From the NCBI GenBank assembly GCA_017460325.1, contig JAFUBF010000482.1:1-44436 (forward strand): a stretch of DNA of 44,436 nt, written 5' to 3'. The notes below the pieces were generated by a model, which had not been told where the DNA came from, did no database searches, and saw only the letters and a program-made list of their open reading frames with translations. This document shows positions 1 to 42,320 of this stretch, piece after piece. The DNA comes from Clostridia bacterium (GTDB lineage Bacteria > Bacillota > Clostridia > Christensenellales > Aristaeellaceae). A program made the position numbers and the translations under genes. The number at the start of each line of letters is the position of its first letter. Position 1 is the stretch's first letter.

Positions 1-561
1 CGTCAGATCTGCTGCGATCCGTCGCTTCTCTTTGAAAACTACAGCGGGGAGAGCGCCAAGCGGGAGGCCTGTATGGAGCTGGTGAAGAGCGCGATCGAGG
101 GCGGACACCGGATGCTGATCTTCTCCCAGTTCGTCACCATGCTGAATCTGCTGGAGGAGGACTTTGCCAGAGAAGGCATTGAAACCTATAAGATCATCGG
201 CTCAACGCCGAAGGAGAAGCGGATTTCCCTGGTCCGGCAGTTTAATGAAAATGAGGTGCCGGTGTTCCTGATCTCCCTCAAGGCGGGCGGCACCGGTCTC
301 AACCTGACCGGCGCGGATGTGGTCATTCACTACGATCCCTGGTGGAATCTGGCTGCGCAGAATCAGGCCACGGACCGCGCCCACCGGATCGGCCAGACAC
401 GCCAGGTGACGGTGTTCAAGCTGATTCTCAAGAACACCATTGAGGAGCGGATCATGGCGCTGCAGGACGCGAAAAAAGATCTGGCAGAGGCCATTCTCGA
501 AGGAAAGAGAGAGTCCCTCATGAGCATGTCGGCGGAGGAACTCATGGCGCTCCTCGGATAA
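1..561 (+). CDS. SNF2/Swi2-family helicase, C-terminal part (5' end lies upstream of the window)
   Basis: Frame 1 is open from base 1 (RQICCDPSLLFENYSGESAKREAC...). Helicase C-terminal motifs are readable: MLIFSQF (IV), LISLKAGGTGLNLTGADVVIHYDPWWN (V), QATDRAHRIGQTRQV (VI). Stop TAA at 559-561. Confidence 0.9.
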   Translation, partial: RQICCDPSLLFENYSGESAKREACMELVKSAIEGGHRMLIFSQFVTMLNLLEEDFAREGIETYKIIGSTPKEKRISLVRQFNENEVPVFLISLKAGGTGLNLTGADVVIHYDPWWNLAAQNQATDRAHRIGQTRQVTVFKLILKNTIEERIMALQDAKKDLAEAILEGKRESLMSMSAEELMALLG

Positions 562-571
562 GTGGCAGGCG

Positions 572-1546
572 GTGCGTATGAAAAAACAGAGTCTTGAATC
601 GCTGCTGGGAAAACGGCTGGCGGAACCGTACGAGAGTCAGTACCGGTATGTGATGGACCTGATTGAATCCGGGCGGATCCGGCCGGTACGGACCTCGCCC
701 GGGAACGGAAAGCGGCCGGCCCTGCGCACGCAGTACTGGCTGGTGGAGGAAAAGCCGGATTACTCTGCATACAGGGATGAACTGCTTTACGAGACCAGCC
801 CCCTGATCCATGTGGATTACTATCTGGGACACCCGGAGGCGTATGTGCAGGACCGGCCCTATGTCAGGCGGCTTTCGGCCTATCTGCAGAAACGGACAGA
901 GCCTGTGCCGGTGTCCTGCAATGAGCGGAGCTTTGAAATCTGGGGCGAGGAAAAGTTCCTGTCAGGCCCCGGCCGGCAGATCCTCAGCCGCTGCGGTGTG
1001 AGGGAATCCGATCTCGCGGTATACTTTACCGCCGAGCCGTTTGCCTGTTTTGCCTTCAGCCGGGAGGTTCCGCAGAAGCTGCTGATTCTTGAAAACAAGG
1101 ATCCGTTTTTCGGTATGCGGCGGTTTCTCCTGGAGGGACATGAGCGGATTCTGGGGGAAACCATCCGTACCCTGATCTACGGGGCGGGCAAGCGTGTGGT
1201 GAGCAGCTTCCGGGAATTTGACCTCAGCGCGGAGCCGTACATGAAAGAGGACGGAAATACCTTTCTCTATTTCGGCGACCTGGATTATGAAGGAATCGGG
1301 ATCTATGAATCGCTGGCGGAGACGTTTCAGGGACGGCAGGTGATCCCGTTTGCCCCGGCGTATCTGGCCATGCTTTCAAAGGGCCGGCAGGCACTGACCC
1401 TTCCTGCCACCCGGGAGGGGCAGAACCGGAACGTGTCCGGTCTGTTTTTTTCCTTCTTTGACGGGTCAGCGGTTCGGCAGATGCAGGCCATTCTGGAGAG
1501 CGGCCGGTACATCCCCCAGGAGATTCTGAACACCGGAGATTATTGA
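572..1546 (+). CDS. Toprim-domain protein resembling the Wadjet JetD / MksG C-terminal domain (DUF2220-like); putative DNA-cleaving subunit
   Basis: 324-aa ORF starting at GTG 572 or ATG 578, 10-16 nt after the SNF2 stop. It carries Toprim-like acidic motifs: LLILENKD (Glu codon 1091-1093) and LYFGDLDYEGIGIY (Asp codons 1277-1279 and 1283-1285), giving an E...DxD pattern. Assigned from motif memory, not from a search. Confidence 0.65.
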   Translation: MRMKKQSLESLLGKRLAEPYESQYRYVMDLIESGRIRPVRTSPGNGKRPALRTQYWLVEEKPDYSAYRDELLYETSPLIHVDYYLGHPEAYVQDRPYVRRLSAYLQKRTEPVPVSCNERSFEIWGEEKFLSGPGRQILSRCGVRESDLAVYFTAEPFACFAFSREVPQKLLILENKDPFFGMRRFLLEGHERILGETIRTLIYGAGKRVVSSFREFDLSAEPYMKEDGNTFLYFGDLDYEGIGIYESLAETFQGRQVIPFAPAYLAMLSKGRQALTLPATREGQNRNVSGLFFSFFDGSAVRQMQAILESGRYIPQEILNTGDY

Positions 1547-1550
1547 GATA

Positions 1551-3173
1551 ATGCAGTATGATTTTCTGAAGGCGTTTCCCAGGCGGATGAAAAGCGTCGG
1601 GCTCTATGCCCTGCTCCTTTCCGCCAGCGGCCAGAAAAGTATCTGGAAGGGGTATCAGTTCGATACAGAGGCGGAGCAGCTGAACATGGACTTTGCGGTT
1701 CTGCTGTTCATCATGGAACAGTCGCTGCGGGAACTGCCCTGTACGACGGATGACATCGGCGCGTTTATCGATGGCATCAATGCCCGCTATTTCCACAAGC
1801 CCATGACCTATGAGGACTGCCGCACTCTGGGGGATTACATCATCAATAATATCCTCTCCAATGAAGGGGCGCCCATGTACTTTGACGGGTTCGACTTTGA
1901 GGAATCGGCGTGGCAGAAGATCCACGTCAGCTATGTGGCGAACCGGATCATCTACCTGGACCAGGAGGTCCGCCGGACTTCGTATTACCTGACGGATGAC
2001 GGGTATAATCTGCTTCTGGGGACACTGGAAGTGGAAAACAACATGAAACTGACCATTCAGGAAATGATCTTCCGGATGCATCTGGAGAAGCAGAGCTATG
2101 ATCAGGCGCTGGAGGACATCAAGGGGGTATTCAATCTTCTCCGGATTCAGATTCAGCGGATTCAGGAGGCCATGAACCGGATCCGGCGGAATGTGCTTGA
2201 TTACAGCGTGTCGGACTATGAGAAAATTCAGGAGGAAGACCTGGATACCATTACGCAGACCCGGGACAAGTTCAGAGGGTACCGGGAGACGGTACAGAAC
2301 CGTGTCCGGGAACTGGAGGAGCGGCGGATCAATGTCCACCTGCTTGAGGCCGGAGAGGAGGACAAGCTGCGGAATCTCCGGGAAATTGAAACCTATCTGA
2401 ACCGGGCCATTGATGAACACCAGCGAATCCTGAACGGACATTTTGACCTCAAATCGCTGTATACAAATGAACTGGAAAAGGTGGCCGAAATGTCCCTGGT
2501 CCGGCGTTTCAGTCTCCGGACGGAGCTGTTTGGCCGGATTGTGGAACAGCCGGAATGTCTTGACCGGATGGATCTGTTTCTGCATCCGCTCTTCAACCGG
2601 AATCCCGGACGGATTCTGAATCTGAGCCGGATCTTTGAGCCCCGGCGGGCAATAGAGACGGAGGAAGAGGAAACCGGAACGGTGGAACTGGATTTTGACG
2701 AGGAGGCGTGGCTGGCCGAACAGGAAGAGAGGCGCAGGCTGAAACAGAAACGGATGGACGAAAGCCTCACCGTTCTCCTGAGGGCGGCAAGGGCCGGCGG
2801 GGTCCATCTCTCGGAAATCCGGGCAGGGCTTGATGAGGCGGAGTACCGGCAGCTGGTCCCGGACGTGGATCTCTTCCGGGAAATCATGGTGGAACTGCTT
2901 CAGGCCCGGGACATTGATATCCGGCGGCTGAGACAGGAACGGGCGGACTATATCCGGGAGGACAGGGAGGAATTCAGCCTGAAGGAGCGGATTCTGAAAA
3001 TCCTTCAGGACCGCCCGGAGTGGAAACGGATTGCCTGGCTGCGGATTGAAAAGGACGAGGGCGCCGAACCGGTCATTTTTGAACGTGTTCCGGATGAATC
3101 CGGTAATCTCCTTTCCGTACGCTGCACGGATGTGGTGATTTCCGTGGATGAGGGTGACACAGATGGCATATGA
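1551..3173 (+). CDS. Kleisin-like subunit candidate (JetA/MksF-like), 540 aa
   Basis: ATG 1551 lies 4 nt after the upstream stop. Architecture is an N-terminal globular region, a coiled-coil segment (QEMIFRMHLEKQSYDQALEDIKGVFNLLRIQIQRIQEAMNRIRRN), an acidic linker (ETEEEETGTVELDFDEEAWLAEQEERRR, about 2655-2745) and a C-terminal globular domain. Size and position immediately upstream of a ~240-aa protein and an SMC-like ATPase fit a kleisin. I recognise no sequence motif; the functional call is inference. The ORF itself is very likely real. Confidence 0.5.
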   Translation: MQYDFLKAFPRRMKSVGLYALLLSASGQKSIWKGYQFDTEAEQLNMDFAVLLFIMEQSLRELPCTTDDIGAFIDGINARYFHKPMTYEDCRTLGDYIINNILSNEGAPMYFDGFDFEESAWQKIHVSYVANRIIYLDQEVRRTSYYLTDDGYNLLLGTLEVENNMKLTIQEMIFRMHLEKQSYDQALEDIKGVFNLLRIQIQRIQEAMNRIRRNVLDYSVSDYEKIQEEDLDTITQTRDKFRGYRETVQNRVRELEERRINVHLLEAGEEDKLRNLREIETYLNRAIDEHQRILNGHFDLKSLYTNELEKVAEMSLVRRFSLRTELFGRIVEQPECLDRMDLFLHPLFNRNPGRILNLSRIFEPRRAIETEEEETGTVELDFDEEAWLAEQEERRRLKQKRMDESLTVLLRAARAGGVHLSEIRAGLDEAEYRQLVPDVDLFREIMVELLQARDIDIRRLRQERADYIREDREEFSLKERILKILQDRPEWKRIAWLRIEKDEGAEPVIFERVPDESGNLLSVRCTDVVISVDEGDTDGI

Positions 3174-3867
3174 ATTTGAGCAGGTCAGGACCAGTCAGGA
3201 GATTTTCATCTATCTCCTTGAACATCATGAGCTGAGAGAAACGGATCAGCCGCAGCTGTACCGGGCGTTTGCGGAGGATGAGGCGGTACAGAACCTGGTC
3301 CGGTCGCAGGGCAGTACGGCCGAATGCGATGTGGAGCGGTACGGGGATGTGATCTATCTCATTCCCGGCCTGCAGAACCGTTTTCTGGGGTATTCCCGGG
3401 CACAGCTGAAAAAGGAACTCTGCCGGTCCAACGCAACGGACCGGGACTATTATCTGGTGCAGTTCTCAATGCTTGTCCTCCTCCTCGAGTTCTATGACGG
3501 GCAGGGAAGCAGCAGTAAAACCCGGGACTATATCCGGGTGGGCGAACTGCAGAACAGCATTACCGCGCACCTGCAGGAAGGCCGGGCAAGGGAAAGTGAG
3601 GAAGGCGCAGGCGGCACCTTTACCCAGATGACGGAGGCGTACGAGGCCCTCCGCTCGGATGATAAGGGCACCCGGCAGAAGACAACCAAGGAAGGGTTTA
3701 TTCACCATATCCTCCGGTTCCTCCAGGCCCAGGGCCTGATTGAATACATTGAGCAGGATGAGATGATCAAGACCACCCGGAAACTGGATCGTTTCATGGA
3801 CTGGAATCTTCTGAACAAGGCCAATTACCAGCGCGTTCTGGATGTACTGGGAGTGCAGAATGAGTAA
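3148..3867 (+). CDS. KITE-like subunit candidate (JetB/MksE-like, DUF4194-like), ~235 aa
   Basis: The ORF overlaps the upstream gene. ATG 3163 is the alternative start and has GAGGGTG upstream. Size and position between the kleisin-like and SMC-like genes match JetB/MukE-class proteins. The stop TAA 3865-3867 overlaps the next start (ATGAGTAA). The functional call is inference. Confidence 0.45.
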   Translation: MRVTQMAYEFEQVRTSQEIFIYLLEHHELRETDQPQLYRAFAEDEAVQNLVRSQGSTAECDVERYGDVIYLIPGLQNRFLGYSRAQLKKELCRSNATDRDYYLVQFSMLVLLLEFYDGQGSSSKTRDYIRVGELQNSITAHLQEGRARESEEGAGGTFTQMTEAYEALRSDDKGTRQKTTKEGFIHHILRFLQAQGLIEYIEQDEMIKTTRKLDRFMDWNLLNKANYQRVLDVLGVQNE

Positions 3868-6800
3868 AATCAACGCAGTCAGGTTCATCAATCTGAACTA
3901 CAACTACAACATGTTCCGCATCAGTGATGAAACGCTGTATTTCAACGGGGAAAGCACACTGGTGAAGATGGACAACGGGGGTGGCAAGTCGGTTCTGATT
4001 CAGATGCTGACGGCGCCTTTTGTTCAGAAGCGATACCGTAACGTCAAGGACCGCCCCTTTGCCAGTTATTTCACCTCCGCCAAACCGACGTTTATCCTGG
4101 TGGAGTGGGAACTGGAACAGGGGGCCGGGTATGTTCTGACCGGCATGATGGTGCGGCAGAATCAGAAGATGGAGGAGGACAGCGACGAGGAGCTGGAGAT
4201 TGTCAATTTCATCAGCGAGTACCGGGAACCCTGCGTGCAGGACCTGAACCATCTGCCGGTGGTGGAGAAGACGAAAGAGGAAATCCGGCTGAAGAGCTTT
4301 GCGGAGTGCCGGGCGCTGTTTGACGGGTACAGGCGGGAGAAGGGGGTACGCTTTCAGAGCTATGACATGGGCAATTCAGCCCAGTCCAAACAGTACTTTG
4401 ACCGGCTGCTGGAGTACGGAATCAACTACCGGGAATGGCAGAACATCATAAGGAAGATCAACGAACAGGAATCGGGCCTGTCGCGGCTCTTTGATGACAG
4501 CCGGGATGAGCGGGGACTGGTGGAAAAGTGGTTTCTCGAAACCATTGAAAACAAGCTGAACCGTGGGCAGAACCGGATGCAGGAATTCCGGAACATCCTG
4601 GAAAAGTACATTGGCAGTTACCGCAACACACAGGACAAGATCCGGCGCCGGGACAACATCCTGCGCTTTGAGGAGGAGGCGGAGAAGATCCGCGGCAGCG
4701 CGGGGGAATACCTTTCTGCCACCCGGGAGTGCCAGGACAGACGGAACGGAATTGTCGCCTATCTCGGTGAACTGCGGCGCCTCGGGGAGGAGGCCAATTC
4801 GGGCCTGAAGGCCGAGCAGGAATGTCTGGTGGAGCTGCGGCAGGAACTGCGGCGAACGGATCATCAGATGCACTCAGCCGACTACTACGCCGGCAGGGAA
4901 CAGATGGAAGCGCTGCAGGGGCAGATCCGTGAACTGCAGCAGGCCCTTGCGGATGCCGAGGCAGAGCGGGCCGGGCGGGAGCGGACGGTGCACCTGCATG
5001 AAATGGCGGACCGCCAGGAACAGACGGATCTGGTGCGGGCGGATCTCCTGGAAGCGGCACAGGCCCTTGAAATCTGCCGGCGAAAAGGGGAGGACCTCAA
5101 GCCGGAGAGAGATTACATCGGGTATCTGCTGCGGTCCGGGTACGAACAGGAAAGGGAAAAGATCCGGCAGCAGCTGGAGGAGACGGAACGGGAGCGGCAG
5201 GGGCGGATTTCCCGGAGAAAGGAACTTGGGGGAGAACTGACCGGCATTGAGCGGGAGACCCGCAGCGCCGAGCAGGAAAAAGGCCGGCTGACCGCCTCCG
5301 TACAGGCCTATGATGAGACAGAAGAGCGGTACATAAGAAACTGGAACGTGGACCTGAACCGGAACCTGATGGGCGAGTATGAGCCAGGGCTGCTGGCAGT
5401 CCTGGGGGAAAAACTGAACAGGGAACGGGAAGAGATCCTCGGGGCGCGTCAGGCCGGACGGAACCGACAGGTGAGTCTGGAGGGCAGTGTCCGCCGTCTG
5501 GAGGACGGGATTGCCGGGCTGGAGCGACTGATCCAGGCGGAAACGGACCGGCTTCGGGTGGCCCGGGAGGAGCGGGAGGCGTTTGAGGCGGAACTGAGGG
5601 TCCGCCGGAGTATCCTGCAGTACCTGGAGCTGAAAGAGGATGCCCTCTTTGATACAGAGCGCATCCTGAGTGAACTGAACAGCCGGATTGCCGAACTGGA
5701 GAGCGGAATTGACCGAGCGGTCATTGAAAGCCGGGCGCTGGAGGGGGAGATCCTCCGGCTGTCCACCGGGCGGACCGTGGAACTGCCGCCGGAGCTGAAA
5801 GAGGCCATGGAAGGCCTTGGAATCCATGTGGTATACGGCATGGAATGGCTGAAGCGGAACGGGAACACGGAAGAGGAGAATCTGCGCCTGGTGGAACGGA
5901 ATCCCTTCCTTCCCTATGCCCTCCTGATGACCGGACGGGAACTGGAAAAACTGAAAGCGGCAGATTTGCCGGTTTATACCTCCGCGCCGGTCCCGGTGGT
6001 CATCCGGGAAAGCCTGGCTGATCTGCAGACGGCCCTGCCGGAGGACATCCCCGGCGTTCACTTTTACATGCTGTTCAACCGGAACCTGCTCAATGAGGAA
6101 CGGCTTCTGGCCATGCTGGAGGAGAAACAGCGTGAGCTTGAGCGGAAAAATGAGGAAATCGAACGGAGGCGTACGGGACACCGGGACTACCTGGAGCGCC
6201 GGACGCGGATAGATGAACAGAAGGTCACAAAGCGGGCGTATGAGGAAACGCAGGAACGGATCACCGAACGGGAGAAACGGATTGAGGCGATCCGGGCGGA
6301 AATCGGCCGGAACATGGACGAGCTTGCCGCTCTGCGGGAAGGACTGAAACAGCTGGCCGAAGAGCTGACCACGCTGGAGCGCCAGCTGGATGCGCGGGAG
6401 CGGCAGGGCCGGGAACTGGATGAACTGACCCAGGCCTATAACCGCTATCTCCTTGCCATGCAGGCATTGCGTGAATGTGAGGCAGGTCTTGTGGACCTGG
6501 ACAGGAAAAAGAAAAAGCTGCAGGTGGAACTGCAGAAAAACGAGGAAGAGAGCCGTCTTCTTGAGGCGCAGCAGAGCGAACTCCGGTTTCGGGACGGGGA
6601 GGTCCGAAGGGAGCTCTCGGCCTATGAGTGGTACGAAAAGACGGATGCACCGGCGCAGTTTGATACTGCCCTCCGGGAGGATGTCCAGGCCCTGATCGCC
6701 CGGTACAAAGCGATTACGGAGAATGTGTCACGGGAGGAAAAGGAGCTGGAGGAGGCCCGAAAGAAGGCGGCGGACCGACTGGACAAGGCGGAAAAGGAAC

Positions 6801-8272
6801 TGGACCGTCGGGCCCGGAAGTACGGGCTTCAGCCCAGTGACTGGCAGGAAATCCGGTACAGTCCGGCAGAACAGGACCGGGCAGAGGCGGAGATGAACGC
6901 TTTTGCCGGGCAGATCCGGGAGCTTTCATCCGATGTGCATGCTCTTGAAATTGAGCACGGGAAAAAGGAAGAGGCCCTGCGCCAGATCCTTGAGTGGATG
7001 CAGCGGGACTGCGGAACGCGGGAACCGCTCTCAAGGGACGAGGTGCCGGTCATGGACTATTCGGAGCGGAAAAGCCTGCTTGTTCACGAAAAGGAGGAGC
7101 ATGGGGCAGCGGCAGATCGTCTGGCGGACCGGATCCGGATTTACAGCGCCAACCTGACCTCCCTCTCCGAGTTTCAGGATACGCCCGCAGGCGAGCCGGT
7201 CCGGTTCGAGGAGGATTTTTCTGCGTTTACGGAGGAGGCGCTGCGCAGCTTTACCGGAAACGCGCTGCGAAACTACCGCAGTGCCGCCGAGGTTGTACGC
7301 GAGCGGAAGGACCGGACGGAAAAAGTCCTGCGGCAGACCGCCCGGATGGAGGAGTTTCAGGATGATTATTACCAGAAACCCCTTGAGACCATTCTGGCAC
7401 TGACGGAGGATGCCGGGCAGGTGCTGCGTCAGCTGGACATGGTCCTGCAGTCGTACCGGGACCTGGTGGCCAAGCTGATGGTGGATATTGCCGTGGTGGA
7501 AAAGGAACGGGCCCATGTCATAGGGGTTTTGAGGGAATACACCCACGAACTTCACCTGCAGATGGGCAGAATCGACCGCAATTCCACGGTAAACGTGCGC
7601 GGAAAGCCGCTGAAAATGCTCAAAATCACGCTGCCGGACTGGGAGGACAATGCCAGGGTATTTGAACCCAGAATCGCGGATCTGGTGGATGAGCTGACCA
7701 AAAACGGGATTGCCCTGCTGGACAAGGGAGAGGCCATCCATGACTTCATCGGGAAACGGATGACCACAAAGGAACTGTATGACACGGTGGTGGGCATCGG
7801 GAATGTGCGGATTCAGCTGTACAAAATTGAGGCCCAGCGGGAACTGCAGATTACCTGGAGTGAGGTGGCCAGGAACTCCGGCGGCGAGGGATTCCTCTCG
7901 GCATTTGTCATTCTCTCCAGCCTCCTGTACTACATGCGGTGGGAGGAAACGGATGTCTTTGCCGACCGGAATGAGGGCAAGGTGCTGCTGATGGACAATC
8001 CCTTTGCCCAGACCAATGCCGCCCACCTGCTGATTCCGCTGATGGAGATGGCGAAGAAGAACAATACACAGCTGATCTGTTTCACCGGCCTGAGCGGCGA
8101 GTCCATCTACAGCCGCTTTGACAACATCTATGTGCTGAACCTGGTCAGGTCTGCTCTGACCAATACGCAGTACCTGCGGGGCAAGCATATTGCCGGCAGT
8201 GACCCCGAGGTGGTGAGTACGGCACGAATTGAGGTCAGCCGCGATTCCGGACAGATGCGGATGCTGTTCTGA
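3860..8272 (+). CDS. SMC-like ABC ATPase with long coiled coil and central hinge (JetC/MksB/MukB-like), 1470 aa
   Basis: Walker A is MDNGGGKS (3968-3991). About 1000 aa of E/R/L/Q-rich heptad-like sequence is interrupted by a non-coiled segment at roughly 5768-6120 (GRTVELPPELKEAMEGLGIHVVYGMEWLKRNG...NPFLPYALLMTG...). A signature-like NSGGEGF is present (SGGE at 7877-7888), followed by Walker B KVLLMDNPF (7982-8005). ATG 3860 is preferred over 3842 because GGGAG lies 8 nt upstream. Confidence 0.8.
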   Translation: MSKINAVRFINLNYNYNMFRISDETLYFNGESTLVKMDNGGGKSVLIQMLTAPFVQKRYRNVKDRPFASYFTSAKPTFILVEWELEQGAGYVLTGMMVRQNQKMEEDSDEELEIVNFISEYREPCVQDLNHLPVVEKTKEEIRLKSFAECRALFDGYRREKGVRFQSYDMGNSAQSKQYFDRLLEYGINYREWQNIIRKINEQESGLSRLFDDSRDERGLVEKWFLETIENKLNRGQNRMQEFRNILEKYIGSYRNTQDKIRRRDNILRFEEEAEKIRGSAGEYLSATRECQDRRNGIVAYLGELRRLGEEANSGLKAEQECLVELRQELRRTDHQMHSADYYAGREQMEALQGQIRELQQALADAEAERAGRERTVHLHEMADRQEQTDLVRADLLEAAQALEICRRKGEDLKPERDYIGYLLRSGYEQEREKIRQQLEETERERQGRISRRKELGGELTGIERETRSAEQEKGRLTASVQAYDETEERYIRNWNVDLNRNLMGEYEPGLLAVLGEKLNREREEILGARQAGRNRQVSLEGSVRRLEDGIAGLERLIQAETDRLRVAREEREAFEAELRVRRSILQYLELKEDALFDTERILSELNSRIAELESGIDRAVIESRALEGEILRLSTGRTVELPPELKEAMEGLGIHVVYGMEWLKRNGNTEEENLRLVERNPFLPYALLMTGRELEKLKAADLPVYTSAPVPVVIRESLADLQTALPEDIPGVHFYMLFNRNLLNEERLLAMLEEKQRELERKNEEIERRRTGHRDYLERRTRIDEQKVTKRAYEETQERITEREKRIEAIRAEIGRNMDELAALREGLKQLAEELTTLERQLDARERQGRELDELTQAYNRYLLAMQALRECEAGLVDLDRKKKKLQVELQKNEEESRLLEAQQSELRFRDGEVRRELSAYEWYEKTDAPAQFDTALREDVQALIARYKAITENVSREEKELEEARKKAADRLDKAEKELDRRARKYGLQPSDWQEIRYSPAEQDRAEAEMNAFAGQIRELSSDVHALEIEHGKKEEALRQILEWMQRDCGTREPLSRDEVPVMDYSERKSLLVHEKEEHGAAADRLADRIRIYSANLTSLSEFQDTPAGEPVRFEEDFSAFTEEALRSFTGNALRNYRSAAEVVRERKDRTEKVLRQTARMEEFQDDYYQKPLETILALTEDAGQVLRQLDMVLQSYRDLVAKLMVDIAVVEKERAHVIGVLREYTHELHLQMGRIDRNSTVNVRGKPLKMLKITLPDWEDNARVFEPRIADLVDELTKNGIALLDKGEAIHDFIGKRMTTKELYDTVVGIGNVRIQLYKIEAQRELQITWSEVARNSGGEGFLSAFVILSSLLYYMRWEETDVFADRNEGKVLLMDNPFAQTNAAHLLIPLMEMAKKNNTQLICFTGLSGESIYSRFDNIYVLNLVRSALTNTQYLRGKHIAGSDPEVVSTARIEVSRDSGQMRMLF

Positions 8273-8305
8273 TGGAGATGCAAGACAGAAAGACGGGATG
8301 AGGGT

Positions 8306-9526
8306 ATGAAAAAAGACGAAAACAGACGATACGTGAAAGTGGGCGTTATGTTGCTGGCCGTTCTCAGTCTGGCGATTCTCCTGACCTTTGCGCTTTTCCG
8401 TCTGGACGGAATTATCAAAATGGTCCGTACGGCACTGCGGATCATGCAGCCCTTCGTGTACGGCGCGGTCATTGCCTATATCCTTGCGCCGCTGTGCGGG
8501 AAAATCGAAGAAGGTCTGATCCGCCTGCTGGGGGAAAAACGGAGGCGGCTGTGTGCGGGGCTGTCCATTTTCCTGTCGGTTCTCCTCTTTATTCTGCTGA
8601 TTGTTCTGCTCATTGCCATCGTCATTCCGCGGGTATTCAACAGCATTGTCACCATTGTCAATTCCCTTCCGGGCCAGCTGAGGGAGCTGAGCCGGAAGAT
8701 TGATGAACTGGTGGCCATGGATGAGGACCTGCAGAAGGCCTGGACAGGGATTACCAGCGAGATCATCCGACGGGTGCAGAACTTCCGGAATACGGGGCTG
8801 ATGCCCATTGCCCAGCGGCTGCTGTCCGGCACTGCTACCTATGTTTCCGTCATTTTCCGGTTCCTGAGCAATCTGATTCTGGCCATTGTCATGACGGTCT
8901 ATCTTCTGGCAACCAGAAAACGCATTGCGGCGCAGGCACATCTGGTCGTGAGGAGCATCTTTTCAACCAAATGGGCGGACCGGATCGAGGGCGAGATCCA
9001 TTTTGCGGATCAGATGTTCAACGGCTTTTTCATGGGCAAACTCCTGGACAGTGCGATCATCGGGATCCTCTGTTTCCTGGGCTGCGTGGCGATGCGTTTC
9101 AGCTCCGCTCCGCTGATTGCAGTGGTCGTGGGAATTACCAACATTATTCCGTTCTTCGGACCGTTCATCGGGGCGATTCCCTGTCTCCTGATCCTGTTCC
9201 TTGAAAACCCTCTCCACAGCCTGATGTTCCTCATCTTCATCCTCATCCTGCAGCAGCTGGACGGGAATTTCATCGGCCCCCGGATTCTCGGCAACACCAC
9301 CGGGCTCTCCGGTCTCTGGGTCACCTTCGCCATCCTGCTCTTTGGCGGCCTCTGGGGCATTACCGGCATGATCGTCGGGGTTCCGCTCTTTGCCGTCATC
9401 TATGATGTGGCCCGCAAGCTCTGCCACAAGGGGCTTCGCTTCCGCGGCAGGGAGGACCTGATCCGGAACTACATGGCAAAATTCCATCCGCCCCTCAGAC
9501 AGCCGGCCAAAGCGCCGAAAGAGTAA
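8306..9526 (+). CDS. AI-2E family transporter (PerM/YtvI-like, UPF0118) integral membrane protein
   Basis: 406-aa polytopic membrane protein with the family-typical segment ITNIIPFFGPFIGAIPCLLILFL and a GxxG-rich C-terminal TM region. RBS GAGGGT lies before ATG 8306. Confidence 0.8.
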   Translation: MKKDENRRYVKVGVMLLAVLSLAILLTFALFRLDGIIKMVRTALRIMQPFVYGAVIAYILAPLCGKIEEGLIRLLGEKRRRLCAGLSIFLSVLLFILLIVLLIAIVIPRVFNSIVTIVNSLPGQLRELSRKIDELVAMDEDLQKAWTGITSEIIRRVQNFRNTGLMPIAQRLLSGTATYVSVIFRFLSNLILAIVMTVYLLATRKRIAAQAHLVVRSIFSTKWADRIEGEIHFADQMFNGFFMGKLLDSAIIGILCFLGCVAMRFSSAPLIAVVVGITNIIPFFGPFIGAIPCLLILFLENPLHSLMFLIFILILQQLDGNFIGPRILGNTTGLSGLWVTFAILLFGGLWGITGMIVGVPLFAVIYDVARKLCHKGLRFRGREDLIRNYMAKFHPPLRQPAKAPKE

Positions 9527-9536
9527 AAAACCGAAA

Positions 9537-9588
9537 CAGGCAGCCCCATGACCCTCAACTACGGGTCATGGGGCTGCCTGTTATCTTT
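9537..9588. terminator. Bidirectional rho-independent terminator between convergent genes
   Basis: 18-bp perfect stem: CAGGCAGCCCCATGACCC (9537-9554) pairs with GGGTCATGGGGCTGCCTG (9563-9580) across an 8-nt loop. It is flanked by TTATCTTT on the plus strand and by AAAAAACCGAAA (a T-tract for the minus strand) upstream. Confidence 0.85.
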
Positions 9589-9595
9589 GCAGGGA

Positions 9596-10876
9596 TCAGC
9601 ATTCCACGCGGATCATGCTCTTCACGTCGACCAGTTCCGCATTGAGCGAGGAAATGGTTTCCTGTACAGCCTGTTCGTTTGCCTCATGGGTAATGAGAAT
9701 GATCTGCGCACGTCCCTTCTCCTTTGAGGGGCGCTGAAGAAGCGAGGCGATGGAAATGGACCTGGCTGAGAAGGCACTGGCCACGCTTCCGAGAACGCCC
9801 GGTGTATCCGCTGCATCCAGGCGCACAAAATAGCGGCAGTTCCAGTTGTCTGTAAAGGAGATCGCCGGGTCCGTCTCGGCGGTGTTGTCAAAAGAGGGTA
9901 CGGTGGGCGTATCCATGTGACAGGCGGCATAGAGGATGTCTCCGCAGATGGCGCTGGCTGTCGGTTTGTCGCCCGCGCCGCGGCCCTGGAGCATCATATC
10001 CTGACAGTACTTGCCGTGAATATAGATGGCGTTGAGGGAACCGTCCACCCGGGCGAGCGGATGCTCATTGGGCAGGAAGGTGGGATGAACCCGTACCTCA
10101 ATGGAGTTGCCGCTGCGCTTTCCGATCGCCAGGAGCTTCAGGGTATAGCCCATTTCCCGGCCATAGGCAATATCGTCCGGCGTGATGCCGGTAATGCCTT
10201 CCCGGTGAATTTTCGCATAGGTAACACGGGTATGGAAGGCAATGGAGGAGAGGATGGAAAGCTTGTAAGCGGCATCATACCCCTCCACGTCCGCCGTGGG
10301 GTTCGGCTCCGCAAGACCGAGCTGCTGCGCCTCGGCCAGCACATCCGTGTAGGAGCGGCCCTGCTGGCTCATCTGCGTCAGGATGTAATTCGTGGTTCCG
10401 TTGACAATGCCCATGACCTGGTCGATCTCGTCGGCATTGAGGGAAACGGTCAGGGAACGGATGACCGGAATGACGCCGCCGACACTGGCCTCATAATACA
10501 GTCCGGCATGGTGCCCGACGGCGGCCGCCTGCAGCCTGTGCCAGTTCAGTGCCAGGGCCATCTTGTTGGCCGTGACAACGGTCTTTCCGTTTTCAAGCGC
10601 CTGCTGCATGAAAGAGGCGGCAGGCTGTTCGCCGCCCATGAATTCGCAGATGATATCAATGTCGGGATCCTTCAGCACCTCATCCGCGTGCTCGGTCATG
10701 ATGTCCTTCGGGACGTCGGACCGGGCTTCGGCAATGCTTTTCACCAGTGCACTTTTAATACGGATGTCAATGTTTTCCCGTTTCAGAATTTCCCCGTGCA
10801 TGTCGGTCAGGAGGTGATAAACGCCTCCGCCGATGTTTCCGCAGCCAAGAAATCCGAGAGTAATGACTTTTGCCAT
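9596..10876 (-). CDS. hom: Homoserine dehydrogenase with C-terminal ACT domain
   Basis: N-terminal Rossmann motif MAKVITLGFLGCGNIGGGV, a central homoserine-DH core (VTANKMALA..., VGGVIPVIRSL, GIVNGTTNYILTQM) and an ACT-like C-terminus. ATG 10876 with AAAGGA RBS is preferred over the track start at 10921. Confidence 0.9.
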   Translation of the reverse strand: MAKVITLGFLGCGNIGGGVYHLLTDMHGEILKRENIDIRIKSALVKSIAEARSDVPKDIMTEHADEVLKDPDIDIICEFMGGEQPAASFMQQALENGKTVVTANKMALALNWHRLQAAAVGHHAGLYYEASVGGVIPVIRSLTVSLNADEIDQVMGIVNGTTNYILTQMSQQGRSYTDVLAEAQQLGLAEPNPTADVEGYDAAYKLSILSSIAFHTRVTYAKIHREGITGITPDDIAYGREMGYTLKLLAIGKRSGNSIEVRVHPTFLPNEHPLARVDGSLNAIYIHGKYCQDMMLQGRGAGDKPTASAICGDILYAACHMDTPTVPSFDNTAETDPAISFTDNWNCRYFVRLDAADTPGVLGSVASAFSARSISIASLLQRPSKEKGRAQIILITHEANEQAVQETISSLNAELVDVKSMIRVEC

Positions 10877-33426: not shown

Positions 33427-34067
33427 GCCATATCCCAGAAGGCGAGCTCATAGCGGCTGCAGTTCACAAAGATTTCCGTCAGGCGGGCCCGCTCGGCCGC
33501 ATCGGCGGATTCTGCCAGATCGTCCATAAGCCGGATCAGGGCCTCATTGGTACGCTGATATTCCTCTGAGGTATAGCCCGTAATCCATTCGCCGTAGAAC
33601 GGATGGGCTGCGGCCCCCGGGACACTTCCCAGTGCGCTTCCGATTTCCGCATAACTCCAGGAACAGGCAAGAATGGCCGCCACGATTTCAGCGGGGCCGC
33701 CTGCCTCTGCAATGGCTAGCATGTAATGCGTATAGGAGAGATTGGCCAGGGCCGGTGTAACCTGCAGGACGTCCTCCTCCCGGATGCCGAGACGCTGCAT
33801 ATACGCACGGTGGAGGTTCATCTCCCCGTTCAGGGTCGCCTCCACGTTCCGGGCAAATTCCCGCATCAGGACCGGATCCCGGGCCTTCACGACGCCCAGA
33901 GCGAAAACGCGGGCATAGTCGAAGAGGTACAGGTAATCCTGCAGCATGAAGAAGCGGAACTTTTCCATGTCAAGGGTGCCGTCGCCAATGCCCCGGACAA
34001 AGGGGTGATCCAGGCACTGTGCCCAGATTTCGGCGGCTGCGGCATGCATCTGTTCGGTCAGTTTCAT
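33408..34067 (-). CDS. tenA: TenA family aminopyrimidine aminohydrolase (thiaminase II)
   Basis: HPFVRGIGDGTLDMEKFRFFMLQDYLYLFDYARVFALGV is typical of TenA. The start overlaps the thiD stop (ATGA). Confidence 0.85.
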   Translation of the reverse strand: MKLTEQMHAAAAEIWAQCLDHPFVRGIGDGTLDMEKFRFFMLQDYLYLFDYARVFALGVVKARDPVLMREFARNVEATLNGEMNLHRAYMQRLGIREEDVLQVTPALANLSYTHYMLAIAEAGGPAEIVAAILACSWSYAEIGSALGSVPGAAAHPFYGEWITGYTSEEYQRTNEALIRLMDDLAESADAAERARLTEIFVNCSRYELAFWDMAWEQQL

Positions 34068-34876
34068 TTATCTGCCTCCTCCCCGATAAACGAACTCCGG
34101 AGGTCATAGAGATGATTCATGGGTCCGCGGCCGCTGCCCAGATCCAGCATGGCGGCCAGTGCACCGGAGATGTATTCCTTTGCCCGCTCCACCGCGGTCT
34201 CAAGGGGCATGTCCTTGGCCAGGTTGGCGGCAATGGCGCTTGAAAGGGTGCATCCCGTTCCGTGGGTGTTTGGGTTCAGAATGCGGCGGCCCCTGAACCA
34301 GTGGAGCGTTCCGCTCTGCCAGAGGAGGTCGTTGGCATCATTGAGATCGTGTCCGCCTTTGAGGAGGACGGCGCAGCCCAGGCGCTGCCCGATCCGGTCC
34401 GCGGCCTTTTCCATGTCGTCAGGGCTGGTGATGTGCAGGCCGGAGAGGATCTCCGCCTCCGGAATGTTCGGCGTAATGATCTCGGCCAGGGGGAGCAGGC
34501 GGGTGATGAGGCTCTCAAGGGCATCATCCCGCAGCAGCTTGGCACCGGAGGTGGCGACCATGACCGGATCGGCCACGATGTGCCGGGCCCTGTACTGCGT
34601 CAGCTTTTCGGCGATGACCTCAATCAGGTCACGGGAGGAGACCATGCCGATCTTGACGGCATCTGGATAGATATCCGTAAAGACGGCGTCAAGCTGGCTG
34701 GCGAGGAATTCCGGTGTTGAATCCAGAATGGCGGTGACGCCGGTGGTGTTCTGGGCCGTCAGGGCGGTTACGGCGGTCATGGCAAAGACGCCGTTTGCGC
34801 TCATGGTCTTAGTGTCCGCCTGGATTCCGGCGCCGCCGCTTGAATCGCTTCCGGCGATGGATAATGCTGTTTTCAC
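34064..34876 (-). CDS. thiD: Hydroxymethylpyrimidine/phosphomethylpyrimidine kinase
   Basis: ALSIAGSDSSGGAGIQADTKT and GTGCTLSSAIAANLA motifs. Confidence 0.9.
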   Translation of the reverse strand: MKTALSIAGSDSSGGAGIQADTKTMSANGVFAMTAVTALTAQNTTGVTAILDSTPEFLASQLDAVFTDIYPDAVKIGMVSSRDLIEVIAEKLTQYRARHIVADPVMVATSGAKLLRDDALESLITRLLPLAEIITPNIPEAEILSGLHITSPDDMEKAADRIGQRLGCAVLLKGGHDLNDANDLLWQSGTLHWFRGRRILNPNTHGTGCTLSSAIAANLAKDMPLETAVERAKEYISGALAAMLDLGSGRGPMNHLYDLRSSFIGEEADK

Positions 34877-37239: not shown

Positions 37240-37372
37240 CAATAAAAAACAGGCGTCCCTGACGGAACGCCTGCTGGCTCGCGGTTTGCTCCCTACGACG
37301 GCATTATCCGTATCAGGTTAAAGGGTCGAAGGTATCGCCTTCCTCTCAGCGTGCATATACAGCTCCCCTGTC
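37240..37372 (-). promoter_or_regulatory. TPP riboswitch with terminator expression platform (controls thiM-thiE)
   Basis: The minus strand reads AGGGGAGC...GCACGCTGAGAGGAAGGCGATACCTTCGACCCTTTAACCTGATACGGATAATGCCGTCGTAGGGAGC. The terminator follows: CAGGCGT/ACGCCTG (37250-37273) then TTTTTTATT. Confidence 0.92.
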
Positions 37373-37379
37373 AGTGCCA

Positions 37380-39973: not shown

Positions 39974-40732
39974 ATGGACAGACAGAAAGAATTCAAAAAG
40001 TTTCTCGGACGGTATAAGGCCTCTGAGGTCGACCGGTATCTGCTTGAACTGGGGCAGGAAAGGGCAACACAGGAGGCAAAGCTGGACAGTTTGCGGCGTG
40101 CGGCTGAGCAGGAAAGCCAGTCGCTTCGGGCGCAGGCGGAAAAGGAGCGGCAGGAAAAAGCGCTGCTTGAGGAAAAGCTGGGTCAGGCGGCGGAGGAGCG
40201 GCGGCTGGATCAGATGAATGCCGAGATGCTGCGCAAGGAGATCCGGACGCTTGAAAAGCGTCTTGCGGATGCCAAAGAGGAAAACCGGGCCTGTGTTTCG
40301 GAAAACAGACGGCTGAAGGCAGATCTGGAGGAGGCGCGGCACAGGCAGGAATCTGTGCAGGAGGAGCTCAGCTTTGCCCAGCTTCAGGCTGAGCAGCTGG
40401 GGCAGAGAGCCGCCAGCCAGCGGATGGAAATTGAACGCCTTGAGAAGATGATTGAGGCGAATCCCGTTGGGGATGCCAATCTGAAGGCACAGAAAATCGT
40501 CCAGGAGGCGGTGGATACCAGCCAGAAAATGCTGGACGATGCGGAAAATGTCCGCTCACAGGCCACGGCGGCGGTCCGTGCCGCGTACTTCAATGCCATG
40601 GGATTCCGGCAGGTGATTGAGGAGCGCTTTGTGAACCTCCAGCATGAGCTGGACAAGTCCATGGGCTCGCTTCGGATGCTGCAGTCACCGGGGAGCTATC
40701 CTGTGTATGTTTCCGGAGAGAACGATGAATAA
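39974..40732 (+). CDS. DivIVA-domain coiled-coil protein
   Basis: The N-terminal FKKFLGRYKASEVDRYLLEL fits the DivIVA motif (F..x.rGY...EVD.fL). About 200 aa of coiled coil follow. ATG 39974 is preferred over 39962. Confidence 0.65.
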   Translation: MDRQKEFKKFLGRYKASEVDRYLLELGQERATQEAKLDSLRRAAEQESQSLRAQAEKERQEKALLEEKLGQAAEERRLDQMNAEMLRKEIRTLEKRLADAKEENRACVSENRRLKADLEEARHRQESVQEELSFAQLQAEQLGQRAASQRMEIERLEKMIEANPVGDANLKAQKIVQEAVDTSQKMLDDAENVRSQATAAVRAAYFNAMGFRQVIEERFVNLQHELDKSMGSLRMLQSPGSYPVYVSGENDE

Positions 40733-42281: not shown

Positions 42282-42320
42282 GTGAGGCGCGGATGGGGCC
42301 TGAAAAACAGAGGAAGTCAT

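What the first reader, a model, noticed from the sequence alone, without database searches (positions are those of the whole stretch)
1..8272. SNF2 helicase coupled to a permuted (D-A-B-C) Wadjet/MksBEFG-like SMC-kleisin-KITE-Toprim cassette
Five same-strand genes are packed with 4-16 nt gaps or overlaps. They run SNF2 (stop 561), Toprim protein (572/578), a 540-aa protein (1551), a ~235-aa protein overlapping by 11-26 nt, and a 1470-aa SMC-like ATPase whose ATG 3860 overlaps the previous stop.

The last three genes have the order, sizes and architecture of kleisin / KITE / SMC (JetA-JetB-JetC, MksF-MksE-MksB). The first carries the E...DxD Toprim pattern of JetD/MksG.

As far as I know, described Wadjet types I-III and Mks operons place the Toprim gene last. 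Their JetC is about 1100 aa, their JetD about 400 aa, and they have no SNF2 partner. Here the Toprim gene is first and short (324 aa), the SMC is MukB-sized, and a SNF2 translocase gene sits directly upstream.

This could be an undescribed condensin-type DNA surveillance (anti-plasmid/anti-phage) variant that combines two DNA motors with a nuclease.
Basis: partly seen in the sequence, partly recalled or inferred. Interest (0 to 1): 0.85.

Follow-up and report, generated by a model that had tools for sequence, protein, structure and literature searches.

The report
Ordinary type III Wadjet anti-plasmid operon
The four genes are a standard, already-classified type III Wadjet anti-plasmid system whose nuclease-first gene order and large sizes are normal for that type, and the SNF2 helicase gene in front of it is an unrelated chromosomal neighbour.

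Summary
The described genes are real and sit at the stated coordinates. The four-gene cassette (window 578-8272) matches the PADLOC type III Wadjet profiles nearly end to end: JetD3 7e-108, JetA3 3e-231, JetB3 4e-117, JetC3 E=0. Those models have the same lengths as the window proteins, so the "short Toprim" and "MukB-sized SMC" are type III norms.

The D-A-B-C order is universal in this family. It holds in 79 of 79 related loci and in two very distant plasmid copies.

The SNF2 linkage is not conserved. SNF2 lies upstream in only 3 of the 62 loci with at least 3 kb upstream, all close relatives. SNF2 orthologs occur without Wadjet, including an "empty site", OGG-SNF2-AI-2E transporter. In the close relatives a ~260-nt spacer with a hairpin and, in one of them, a near-consensus promoter separates SNF2 from jetD. 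The window has lost that spacer.

Verdict: a known system, not an SNF2-coupled or permuted variant.

Side observation: every type III JetC examined has Asn in place of the catalytic Walker B Glu (78/78 loci, 147/147 cluster representatives).

The parts
1..561 (+). 3' end (186 codons) of a 1271-aa SNF2-family helicase gene (SNF2_assoc + SNF2-rel_dom + Helicase_C). It is a chromosomal neighbour, not part of the Wadjet system.
   Evidence: Helicase_C 5e-26. The full gene is on the parent contig at L001:5196-9011. PADLOC DpdE/ZorD hits cover only the helicase core, and all NCBIfam hits are far below their cut-offs. Orthologs occur without Wadjet.
562..577 (+). 16-nt junction between the SNF2 stop and the jetD ATG. 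The three closest relatives have a ~260-nt spacer here.
   Evidence: Alignment A5. The relatives' spacer holds a strong hairpin directly after the SNF2 stop (dG -25.5 and -25.8 kcal/mol, z -5.6 and -4.0). In L005 it also holds an 11/12 sigma-70-like promoter. No promoter-like site was found on the + strand in window 1-9800.
578..1546 (+). jetD (type III), Toprim nuclease effector, 322 aa. Catalytic-type residues are E172, D234 and D236 from ATG 578 (E174, D236, D238 from GTG 572).
   Evidence: PADLOC JetD3 PDLC00592 7e-108, residues 3-323 on model positions 13-337 of 346. Pfam JetD_C 3e-4, below the cut-off. E and DxD are invariant in 27 homologs. AF2 model pLDDT 89.4. Top PDB fold hits are P. 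aeruginosa JetD 7TIL (prob 0.99, E 9e-5), then topoisomerase VI-A and type IIA Toprim domains.
1551..3173 (+). jetA (type III), presumed kleisin subunit, 540 aa.
   Evidence: PADLOC JetA3 PDLC00561 3e-231, 1-533 on 1-536 of 539. 2563 homologs. The kleisin fold was not confirmed: AF2 pLDDT 55.5, with only residues ~385-535 confident; Foldseek was non-significant; hhalign to MukF was negative.
3163..3867 (+). jetB (type III), presumed KITE subunit, 234 aa (the longest ORF starts at 3148). It overlaps jetA by 11 nt.
   Evidence: PADLOC JetB3 PDLC00572 4e-117. Pfam DUF6063 8e-78. The KITE fold was not confirmed by sequence: PDB profile search and hhalign to MukE were both negative.
3860..8272 (+). 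jetC (type III), SMC-like ABC ATPase, 1470 aa. Walker A is NGGGK43S, the signature motif is NSGGEG (1339-1344), and the Walker B position is VLLMD1379-N1380-PF (nt 7982-8005). The ATG overlaps the jetB stop by 8 nt.
   Evidence: PADLOC JetC3 PDLC00583 E=0, 1746 bits, 7-1476 on 1-1471 of 1471. Coiled-coil matches over residues ~750-1060. hhalign aligns the C-terminal head to MukB 1365-1469, E 4.6e-4. Motif conservation.
8306..9526 (+). AI-2E family transporter gene. It is the backbone gene on the far side of the slot that holds the Wadjet cassette.
   Evidence: Pfam AI-2E_transport 2.5e-50. In L084 this gene follows the SNF2 ortholog directly, with a 63-nt spacer and no Wadjet. In L089 the same slot holds a UvrA-like ATPase plus a NUDIX gene.

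Best explanation
Window 578-8272 is an intact type III Wadjet operon, jetD-jetA-jetB-jetC, in the gene order and with the protein sizes that are normal for that type.

By analogy with characterised Wadjet systems, JetA/B/C form an SMC motor complex that loads on DNA and extrudes loops using ATP. On a small circular DNA the extrusion runs to completion and the complex stalls. The JetD Toprim nuclease then cuts the DNA, destroying plasmids while sparing the chromosome.

Shown here: the family assignment of all four proteins, the JetD fold and its catalytic-type residues, the SMC-type motif layout of JetC, and the conservation of the operon order.

Inferred: the kleisin and KITE folds, and the extrusion-cleavage mechanism. 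Biochemistry exists only for types I and II. Type III has only genetic evidence of plasmid restriction.

The SNF2 gene upstream belongs to the host chromosome backbone (OGG - SNF2 - [variable slot] - AI-2E transporter - homoserine dehydrogenase). The Wadjet cassette occupies the variable slot in this clade. The 10-16-nt SNF2-jetD spacing results from loss of a ~260-nt spacer that the closest relatives still have. That spacer carries a terminator-like hairpin and, in one of the three relatives, a near-consensus promoter. So in this genome the operon is probably transcribed by read-through from the SNF2 gene or from a promoter inside its 3' end (inference).
For: - Near end-to-end, very strong hits of all four proteins to PADLOC type III profiles of matching length.
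- RefSeq names for homologs: JetD domain-containing protein and DUF6063 family protein.
- JetD model pLDDT 89.4, with P. aeruginosa JetD as top PDB fold hit, followed by topoisomerase VI-A and Toprim domains. E...DxD is invariant.
- JetC has Walker A at the N-terminus, signature plus Walker B Asp at the C-terminus, a central coiled coil, and a C-terminal head that aligns to MukB.
- D-A-B-C order on one strand in 79/79 loci, median jetD-jetA gap 34 nt. The same order holds at 24-30% identity on C. perfringens and Pontibacillus plasmids.
- The B. thuringiensis operon, which names as the type III representative, restricts plasmids in B. subtilis, and a JetD Toprim Glu-to-Ala mutation abolishes this (bioRxiv 10.1101/2022.10.04.510915). 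The types are defined partly by operon organization (PMC10586767).
- SNF2 independence: it lies upstream in only 3 of 62 loci with at least 3 kb upstream, all 81-85% identical relatives that also share the flanking OGG and AI-2E genes.
- SNF2 orthologs without Wadjet: L083, L084 (empty slot), L085, L089 (other cargo), L091.
- The spacer with a hairpin (and, in L005, a promoter) is present in the relatives and absent in the window.
- The rest of the window is ordinary metabolism and transport, not a defence island.
Against: - The kleisin (JetA) and KITE (JetB) folds could not be confirmed independently of the PADLOC names.
- JetC lacks the canonical Walker B glutamate (Asn1380). This holds for the whole type III family, so the ATPase cycle may differ from the type I/II paradigm.
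- No activity data exist for this locus.
- The lost spacer carried a promoter-like site in L005, so loss of the operon's own promoter could mean low or no expression here.
- SNF2-type genes flank Wadjet-III in two independent ways among 80 loci (upstream here; a DUF3670-type SNF2 downstream in L060/L079/L082). That is somewhat more than I would expect by chance, though I did not test it statistically.
Confidence: 0.92

Rival explanations
1. One reading: an undescribed Wadjet variant in which an SNF2 translocase works together with a permuted JetDABC cassette, so that two DNA motors act with one nuclease.
For: The SNF2 stop and jetD start are only 10-16 nt apart on the same strand, with no promoter-like or terminator-like site between them, so co-transcription is likely in this genome. 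SNF2 helicases are components of several defence systems, and the core domain hits DpdE, ZorD and DrmD profiles. A different SNF2 family sits just downstream of jetC in three other loci.
Against: SNF2 is upstream in only 3 of 62 related loci with enough upstream sequence, all close relatives with shared flanks. Even there a ~260-nt spacer separates the genes, with a hairpin in all three and a promoter-like site in L005. SNF2 orthologs at 46-71% identity lack any Wadjet neighbour, and L084 shows the empty slot. The D-A-B-C order and the sizes are the type III norm. The PADLOC SNF2 hits cover only the generic helicase core, and NCBIfam scores are far below their cut-offs.
Confidence: 0.03
2. The cassette is a chromosome-organising MksBEF/MukBEF-type condensin rather than a defence system.
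For: The JetC C-terminal head aligns weakly to MukB. The genes sit in a core metabolic neighbourhood rather than a defence island.
Against: A JetD Toprim nuclease gene with intact catalytic-type residues is part of the operon, and that gene is what distinguishes Wadjet from condensins. The cassette is present or absent among close relatives at the same slot, as expected of accessory genes. The type III operon restricts plasmids in B. subtilis. Other loci have a Septu system nested inside the operon, which is typical of defence-gene clustering.
Confidence: 0.02
3. The operon is a silenced or poorly expressed copy. Loss of the ~260-nt spacer removed its own promoter, so the genes are intact but not functioning in this organism.
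For: The spacer present in L003-L005 is absent in the window, and in L005 it holds an 11/12 sigma-70-like promoter. No promoter-like site was found on the + strand in window 1-9800.
Against: All four ORFs are intact and full length relative to their profiles. The hairpin was lost together with the promoter region, which would allow read-through from the SNF2 gene. The promoter scan is a crude consensus match and may not suit this organism.
Confidence: 0.08

Closest known systems
Wadjet type III (JetD3-JetA3-JetB3-JetC3; Doron et al. 2018 classification as implemented in PADLOC; representative operon from Bacillus thuringiensis)
   Same: All four proteins match the type-III-specific profiles nearly end to end with the same lengths. 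The operon order is the same as in 79 other loci and two annotated plasmid copies. JetD has the Toprim residues and the JetD fold. JetC is long, as reported for Wadjet-III.
   Different: Nothing of substance. This copy sits directly behind an SNF2 gene because the intergenic spacer was lost. I could not retrieve the B. thuringiensis reference operon or the Doron et al. text, so the comparison is to the PADLOC family models and to homologous loci, not to the reference sequence itself.
Wadjet type I (E. coli GF4-3 and P. aeruginosa JetABCD; C. glutamicum MksBEFG)
   Same: Same four-subunit logic of kleisin, KITE and SMC plus a Toprim nuclease. The JetD model's best PDB fold match is P. aeruginosa JetD 7TIL. 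The DxD motif aligns with MksG.
   Different: According to the literature, type I has the order jetA-B-C-D. Type I JetD profiles are mostly longer (387-409 aa against 322 aa here). Sequence similarity is nearly undetectable. Type I JetC has the usual Walker B Asp-Glu (the EQ mutants used in the literature; my own knowledge), whereas type III has Asp-Asn.
MukBEF / MksBEF condensins
   Same: Three consecutive genes of kleisin-like, KITE-like and SMC-like sizes. The JetC C-terminal head aligns to MukB 1365-1469, covering the signature and Walker B motifs. JetC is MukB-sized.
   Different: A Toprim nuclease gene is present. There is no detectable similarity of JetA to MukF or of JetB to MukE. Distribution is accessory and patchy. 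Walker B Glu is replaced by Asn.
SNF2-containing defence systems (Dpd, Zorya type II ZorD, DISARM DrmD, BREX BrxH)
   Same: The upstream gene's helicase core hits DpdE, ZorD and DrmD profiles.
   Different: Only the generic SNF2 core (residues ~700-1270) matches. No partner genes of any of these systems are present nearby, since upstream lie an OGG glycosylase and small ORFs with no PADLOC hits. NCBIfam scores are far below their cut-offs. The gene is conserved in the backbone without any defence partner.

Membership tests
Wadjet type III | Four co-oriented, adjacent genes encoding JetA, JetB, JetC and JetD, each matching the type-III-specific sequence families | tested here: met
   PADLOC JetD3 7e-108, JetA3 3e-231, JetB3 4e-117, JetC3 E=0, all near full length on both protein and model. 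ORF layout.
Wadjet type III | Operon organisation characteristic of the type (jetD first, then jetA, jetB, jetC) | tested here: met
   79/79 homologous loci with a JetD hit have it upstream on the same strand, median gap 34 nt. Two RefSeq-annotated plasmid copies at 24-30% identity have the same order. The literature states that the types differ in operon organisation. I could not read the order itself in a paper.
Wadjet type III | JetD: Toprim nuclease with a conserved acidic Glu and a DxD motif, and the JetD / topoisomerase VI-A-like fold | tested here: met
   E172, D234 and D236 (from ATG 578) are invariant in 27 homologs. AF2 pLDDT 89.4. Foldseek top hits are 7TIL JetD (prob 0.99) and 1D3Y Topo VI-A, but global TM-scores are low (0.26-0.30). 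Pfam JetD_C is below its cut-off for this protein but is recorded for most homologs.
Wadjet type III | JetC: SMC-type ABC ATPase with N-terminal Walker A, C-terminal signature motif and Walker B, separated by long coiled coils | tested here: met
   NGGGK43S. NSGGEG and hhhhD1379 align to the MukB signature and Walker B. Coiled-coil matches over ~750-1060. Caveat: the Walker B Glu is Asn in this protein and in all type III members examined. No structure model was possible because the protein is too long for the tool.
Wadjet type III | JetA: kleisin with N- and C-terminal winged-helix domains that bridge the SMC heads | tested here: inconclusive
   AF2 model pLDDT 55.5, with only residues ~385-535 confident. 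In Foldseek, JetA chains of Wadjet-II (9qe1_E) and Wadjet-I (8as8_E) appear at ranks 13 and 17 with E 0.5-0.7. hhalign to MukF and the PDB profile search were negative.
Wadjet type III | JetB: KITE subunit (tandem winged-helix) | tested here: inconclusive
   Pfam gives only DUF6063. The PDB profile search found nothing meaningful, the best relevant hit being a Fur winged-helix at E 0.04. hhalign to MukE was negative.
Wadjet type III | Restricts small circular plasmids in a JetD-dependent manner | not testable with these tools
   Reported for the B. thuringiensis operon in B. subtilis. Not testable for this locus.
SNF2-dependent defence systems (Dpd, Zorya II, DISARM, BREX-BrxH) | The SNF2 protein matches the family model over its full length and sits with the system's partner genes | tested here: not met
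   Matches cover only the helicase core. NCBIfam DpdE scored 31 bits against a cut-off of 500, and ZorD 217 against 1500. The upstream neighbours are OGG and small ORFs with no PADLOC hits.
MukBEF/MksBEF condensin (no nuclease) | A three-gene kleisin-KITE-SMC operon without an associated Toprim nuclease gene | tested here: not met
   jetD is the first gene of the operon, here and in all 79 related loci.

The most novel reading that the evidence does not exclude
The locus itself is ordinary, but the family it belongs to may not be. Every type III JetC examined has Asp-Asn instead of the Asp-Glu Walker B motif that provides the catalytic base in type I Wadjet, MukB and other SMC/ABC ATPases. This holds for 78/78 loci and 147/147 cluster representatives down to 38% identity. 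If it has not been described and matters for function, Wadjet-III motors either hydrolyse ATP with a different catalytic residue or work with very slow turnover, as proposed for Lamassu LmuB with its natural Glu-to-Gln. That would mean they do not follow the type I loop-extrusion paradigm that is currently extended to them by analogy.
Probability: 0.3. Interest if true: 0.55.

Novelty: already known. Interest (0 to 1): 0.1.

Why it matters
For the finding as posed, it matters little. This is one more copy of a classified defence system that standard tools (PADLOC, and RefSeq naming) already recognise. The apparent SNF2 coupling comes from chromosomal neighbourhood plus the loss of an intergenic spacer.

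It is still a useful calibration example. Type III Wadjet differs enough from the textbook type I (nuclease gene first, shorter JetD, MukB-sized JetC, no Pfam hits for JetA or JetC) that a reader who knows type I will take it for something new.

Two residual points have some value. First, Wadjet-III is still mechanistically uncharacterised according to the literature. Second, the family-wide Walker B Asp-Asn is a concrete, testable feature for anyone working on it.

Tried and rejected
1. Dpd/Zorya reading of the SNF2 fragment. The first PADLOC hit was DpdE, but the full-length protein matches only through the helicase core, no partner genes are present, and NCBIfam scores are far below their cut-offs. 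Rejected.

2. Any other conserved partner upstream of jetD. I clustered upstream ORFs in the 62 loci with at least 3 kb upstream. The largest family covers 9 loci (a surface repeat protein) and none is conserved.

3. Sequence and profile searches of JetD, JetA, JetB and JetC against PDB sequences. The only results were a marginal MksG hit at the DxD motif (E 0.55) and coiled-coil noise.

4. JetA structure model. It was too poor (pLDDT 55.5) for a meaningful fold search.

5. hhalign of JetA3 vs MukF and JetB3 vs MukE. Nothing found.

6. Literature statement of the type III gene order. Doron et al. 2018 is not held. Two full-text searches timed out. The papers I could read describe the operons only in figures.

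7. H-loop anomaly in JetC (Thr-Gly instead of His). Dropped, because MukB also lacks His at the aligned position.

8. Defence-island context. The rest of the window is metabolism and transport genes, with no tRNA or integrase nearby. The way the cassette entered the slot remains unknown.
Full report
**Observation.** The ORF map confirms five co-oriented genes at the stated coordinates.
- An SNF2 fragment ends at 561.
- A 322/324-aa ORF runs from 578/572 to 1546.
- A 540-aa ORF covers 1551-3173.
- A 234/239-aa ORF covers 3163/3148-3867.
- A 1470-aa ORF runs from ATG 3860 to 8272.

E174, D236 and D238 of the second protein lie in LILENKD and FGDLDYEG, and K43 of the last protein lies in NGGGKS.

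The window is part of a 104-kb metagenomic scaffold (L001; window position = L001 position minus 8450). On that scaffold the SNF2 gene is complete: 1271 aa with SNF2_assoc, SNF2-rel_dom and Helicase_C domains, preceded by an OGG-type DNA glycosylase gene.

**What the four genes are.** Against PADLOC, each protein matches a type-III-specific Wadjet profile nearly end to end:
- JetD3 PDLC00592, 7e-108
- JetA3 PDLC00561, 3e-231
- JetB3 PDLC00572, 4e-117
- JetC3 PDLC00583, E=0, 1746 bits, residues 7-1476 on a 1471-position model

The type III models are 345-350 aa (JetD3), 498-539 aa (JetA3), 237-254 aa (JetB3) and 1451-1486 aa (JetC3). The "short" Toprim protein and the "MukB-sized" SMC are therefore exactly what type III looks like. 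Most type I and II JetD models in the same output are longer (387-430 aa).

Pfam recognises only DUF6063 in JetB (8e-78) and a sub-threshold JetD_C in JetD. That explains why the cassette looks unannotated at first sight.

Homologs are abundant: 2563 JetA and 2245 JetD relatives among the scored candidates, mostly Clostridia and Lachnospiraceae. RefSeq already names some of them [quoted passage not shown].

**Independent checks of the subunit identities.**
- *JetD.* An AlphaFold model built on 27 homologs is confident (pLDDT 89.4). Its best PDB fold matches are P. aeruginosa JetD (7TIL, probability 0.99, E 9e-5), then topoisomerase VI-A and the Toprim domains of type IIA topoisomerases. Global TM-scores are low (0.26-0.30), as expected if the two domains are oriented differently. 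The Glu and the DxD are invariant across the alignment.
- *JetC.* It has Walker A at the N-terminus. Its signature motif and Walker B aspartate lie in a C-terminal head that hhalign aligns to E. coli MukB residues 1365-1469 (E 4.6e-4, probability only 33%). Coiled-coil matches cover residues ~750-1060.
- *JetA and JetB.* I could not confirm the kleisin and KITE folds. The JetA model is poor (pLDDT 55.5) and its fold search non-significant. Profile searches against PDB sequences and against MukF and MukE found nothing. These two assignments rest on the PADLOC families, gene position and size.

**Gene order.** I scanned one genome per species with a JetA alignment. 326 genomes encode a relative, and I examined the best 80 loci.
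- JetD lies immediately upstream of JetA on the same strand in all 79 loci where a JetD match exists, with a median gap of 34 nt.
- The other three loci simply start too close to jetA to show it.
- JetB and JetC follow jetA in every case.
- Two far more distant copies (24-30% identity to JetA) have the same order in RefSeq annotation: JetD-domain protein, hypothetical, DUF6063 protein, then a 1450-1705-aa hypothetical. These are on a 404-kb C. perfringens plasmid and an 898-kb Pontibacillus plasmid.

D-A-B-C is therefore the native order of this family, not a permutation. [quoted passage not shown] Another paper notes that Wadjet-III SMCs lack a hinge channel and mostly have longer coiled coils (PMC12647877). 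I remember the type III operon being drawn with jetD first in Doron et al. 2018, but that paper is not held, so this stays a recollection.

**The SNF2 linkage.** Among the 62 loci with at least 3 kb upstream of jetD, an SNF2 gene lies upstream in only three (L003-L005). These are the closest relatives: Jet proteins 75-95% identical, and SNF2 80-83%. They also share the flanking OGG gene and, where the contig reaches that far (L004), the AI-2E transporter gene. This is conserved chromosomal synteny within one clade. No other gene family recurs upstream of jetD either.

From the other direction, the SNF2 protein has about 20 full-length orthologs, and I fetched the contexts of seven. None has Wadjet next to it:
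- L083: OGG, SNF2, then citrate-lyase genes.
- L084: OGG, SNF2, then the AI-2E transporter after a 63-nt spacer. This is the empty slot.
- L085: dnaE, then SNF2.
- L089: SNF2, a UvrA-like ATPase, NUDIX, the AI-2E transporter, then homoserine dehydrogenase. This is the same backbone with different cargo.
- L091: SNF2 among uncharacterised genes, followed by a CAP-domain gene on the opposite strand.
- L090 and L092 also lack Wadjet, but these contigs end too soon after SNF2 to say much.

The Wadjet cassette thus occupies a variable slot downstream of a backbone SNF2 gene.

**The tight spacing.** Aligning the junction shows that L003-L005 have a ~260-nt spacer between the SNF2 stop and the jetD ATG, and the window lacks it. 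The spacer begins with a strong hairpin directly after the SNF2 stop (dG -25.5 and -25.8 kcal/mol, z -5.6 and -4.0). In L005 it also contains an 11-of-12 match to a sigma-70 promoter about 150 nt upstream of jetD.

In the relatives, then, the two genes look like separate transcription units. The same alignment fixes the jetD start at ATG 578. A likely consequence, which I infer but did not show, is that jetDABC is now transcribed by read-through from the SNF2 gene. Alternatively the operon is poorly expressed.

**Is the SNF2 a defence gene?** Its PADLOC hits (DpdE, ZorD, DrmD) cover only the generic helicase core (residues ~700-1270). NCBIfam scores are far below every cut-off. No partner genes of those systems are nearby. 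The rest of the window encodes transporters, NamZ, a GH3 hydrolase, asparaginase, thiamine genes with a TPP riboswitch, and polysaccharide synthesis genes. This is not a defence island.

**How it most likely works.** By membership in Wadjet, JetABC would be an SMC motor that loads on DNA and extrudes it. Complete extrusion of a small circle stalls the complex and licenses JetD to cut.
- This mechanism is established for type I and reported to hold for type II. Those authors extend it to type III only by inference.
- The B. thuringiensis operon, which names as the type III representative, restricts plasmids in B. subtilis. A JetD Toprim Glu-to-Ala mutation abolishes this.
- For the window locus, the mechanism is inference from family membership.

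**An unexpected family-wide feature.** At the Walker B position JetC reads VLLMD-N-PF, with Asn1380 where ABC and SMC ATPases have the catalytic glutamate.
- The hhalign alignment places this Asn opposite the Walker B Glu of MukB (LFLD-E-AA).
- The motif is DNPF in 78 of 78 type III JetC copies in the fetched loci.
- It is D-N in 147 of 147 scorable cluster representatives, out of 827 detected in a 1.8-billion-protein library, down to 38% identity.
- I found no mention of this in the papers I could search, but that search was far from exhaustive.
- A natural Glu-to-Gln at the same position is described for Lamassu LmuB and interpreted as slow or absent hydrolysis.

This is a property of Wadjet-III in general, not of this locus. 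It is the one point where the standard mechanism may not transfer cleanly.

**Verdict.** It is an intact, typical type III Wadjet operon sitting next to an unrelated chromosomal SNF2 gene. Novelty: already known. Interest: low.

Noticed in passing
window 7982-8005 (JetC residues 1375-1382, VLLMDNPF); also L003-L088 and P0301-P0450: Type III JetC has Asp-Asn at the Walker B position instead of the Asp-Glu of SMC/ABC ATPases. The motif is invariant in 78/78 loci and 147/147 cluster representatives, and hhalign places the Asn opposite MukB's Walker B Glu. I did not find this described in the papers I could search. It suggests unusual ATPase chemistry across Wadjet-III.
   Followed up: partly
L061:7911-9985 (probably also L018 and L057, which have 1.6-kb gaps between jetD and jetA): A complete Septu system (PtuA, PADLOC 2e-141; PtuB, 9e-44) is nested between jetD and jetA of a type III Wadjet operon. 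One defence system is inserted inside another operon, on the same strand.
   Followed up: partly
L060:16846-19458, and the equivalent positions in L079 and L082: A different SNF2 helicase family (870 aa; DUF3670 + SNF2-rel_dom + Helicase_C) starts about 90 nt downstream of jetC on the same strand in three Lachnospiraceae loci. Together with the window clade, that makes two independent SNF2 adjacencies among 80 Wadjet-III loci. I did not test this against chance.
   Followed up: partly
window 562-8305 compared with L084:13808-13870 and L089:3980-7585: The slot between the SNF2 gene and the AI-2E transporter gene is variable among relatives. It is empty in L084 (63 nt), holds Wadjet-III in the window clade, and holds a UvrA-like ATPase (PADLOC mad3 2e-66) plus a NUDIX gene in L089. 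No integrase, transposase or tRNA is nearby, so how the cargo is exchanged is unknown.
   Followed up: partly
L001:4260-9011; L083:4602-9533; L084:9031-13807; L003-L005: An OGG-type 8-oxoguanine DNA glycosylase gene sits directly upstream of the 1271-aa SNF2_assoc helicase gene in several lineages (SNF2 64-100% identical). It is absent in L085, L090, L091 and L092. This hints that the SNF2 protein has a DNA-repair-related housekeeping role.
   Followed up: no
L087 (C. perfringens pJFP838A, 404 kb) and L088 (Pontibacillus sp. plasmid, 898 kb): Distant type III Wadjet operons are carried on very large plasmids. This fits the reported size limit of Wadjet targeting (about 100 kb for type I), which would let such replicons carry an anti-plasmid system without destroying themselves.
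   Followed up: no
window 37273-37379 (- strand): A TPP riboswitch (Rfam RF00059, 55 bits, just above the gathering score) lies upstream of minus-strand genes that include a phosphomethylpyrimidine kinase (34064-34876). This is ordinary thiamine regulation.
   Followed up: no
window 40644-44144 (+ strand): A polysaccharide deacetylase/GDSL protein is followed by a glycosyltransferase family 2 synthase with an N-terminal PilZ domain. This suggests a c-di-GMP-controlled exopolysaccharide synthase pair.
   Followed up: no
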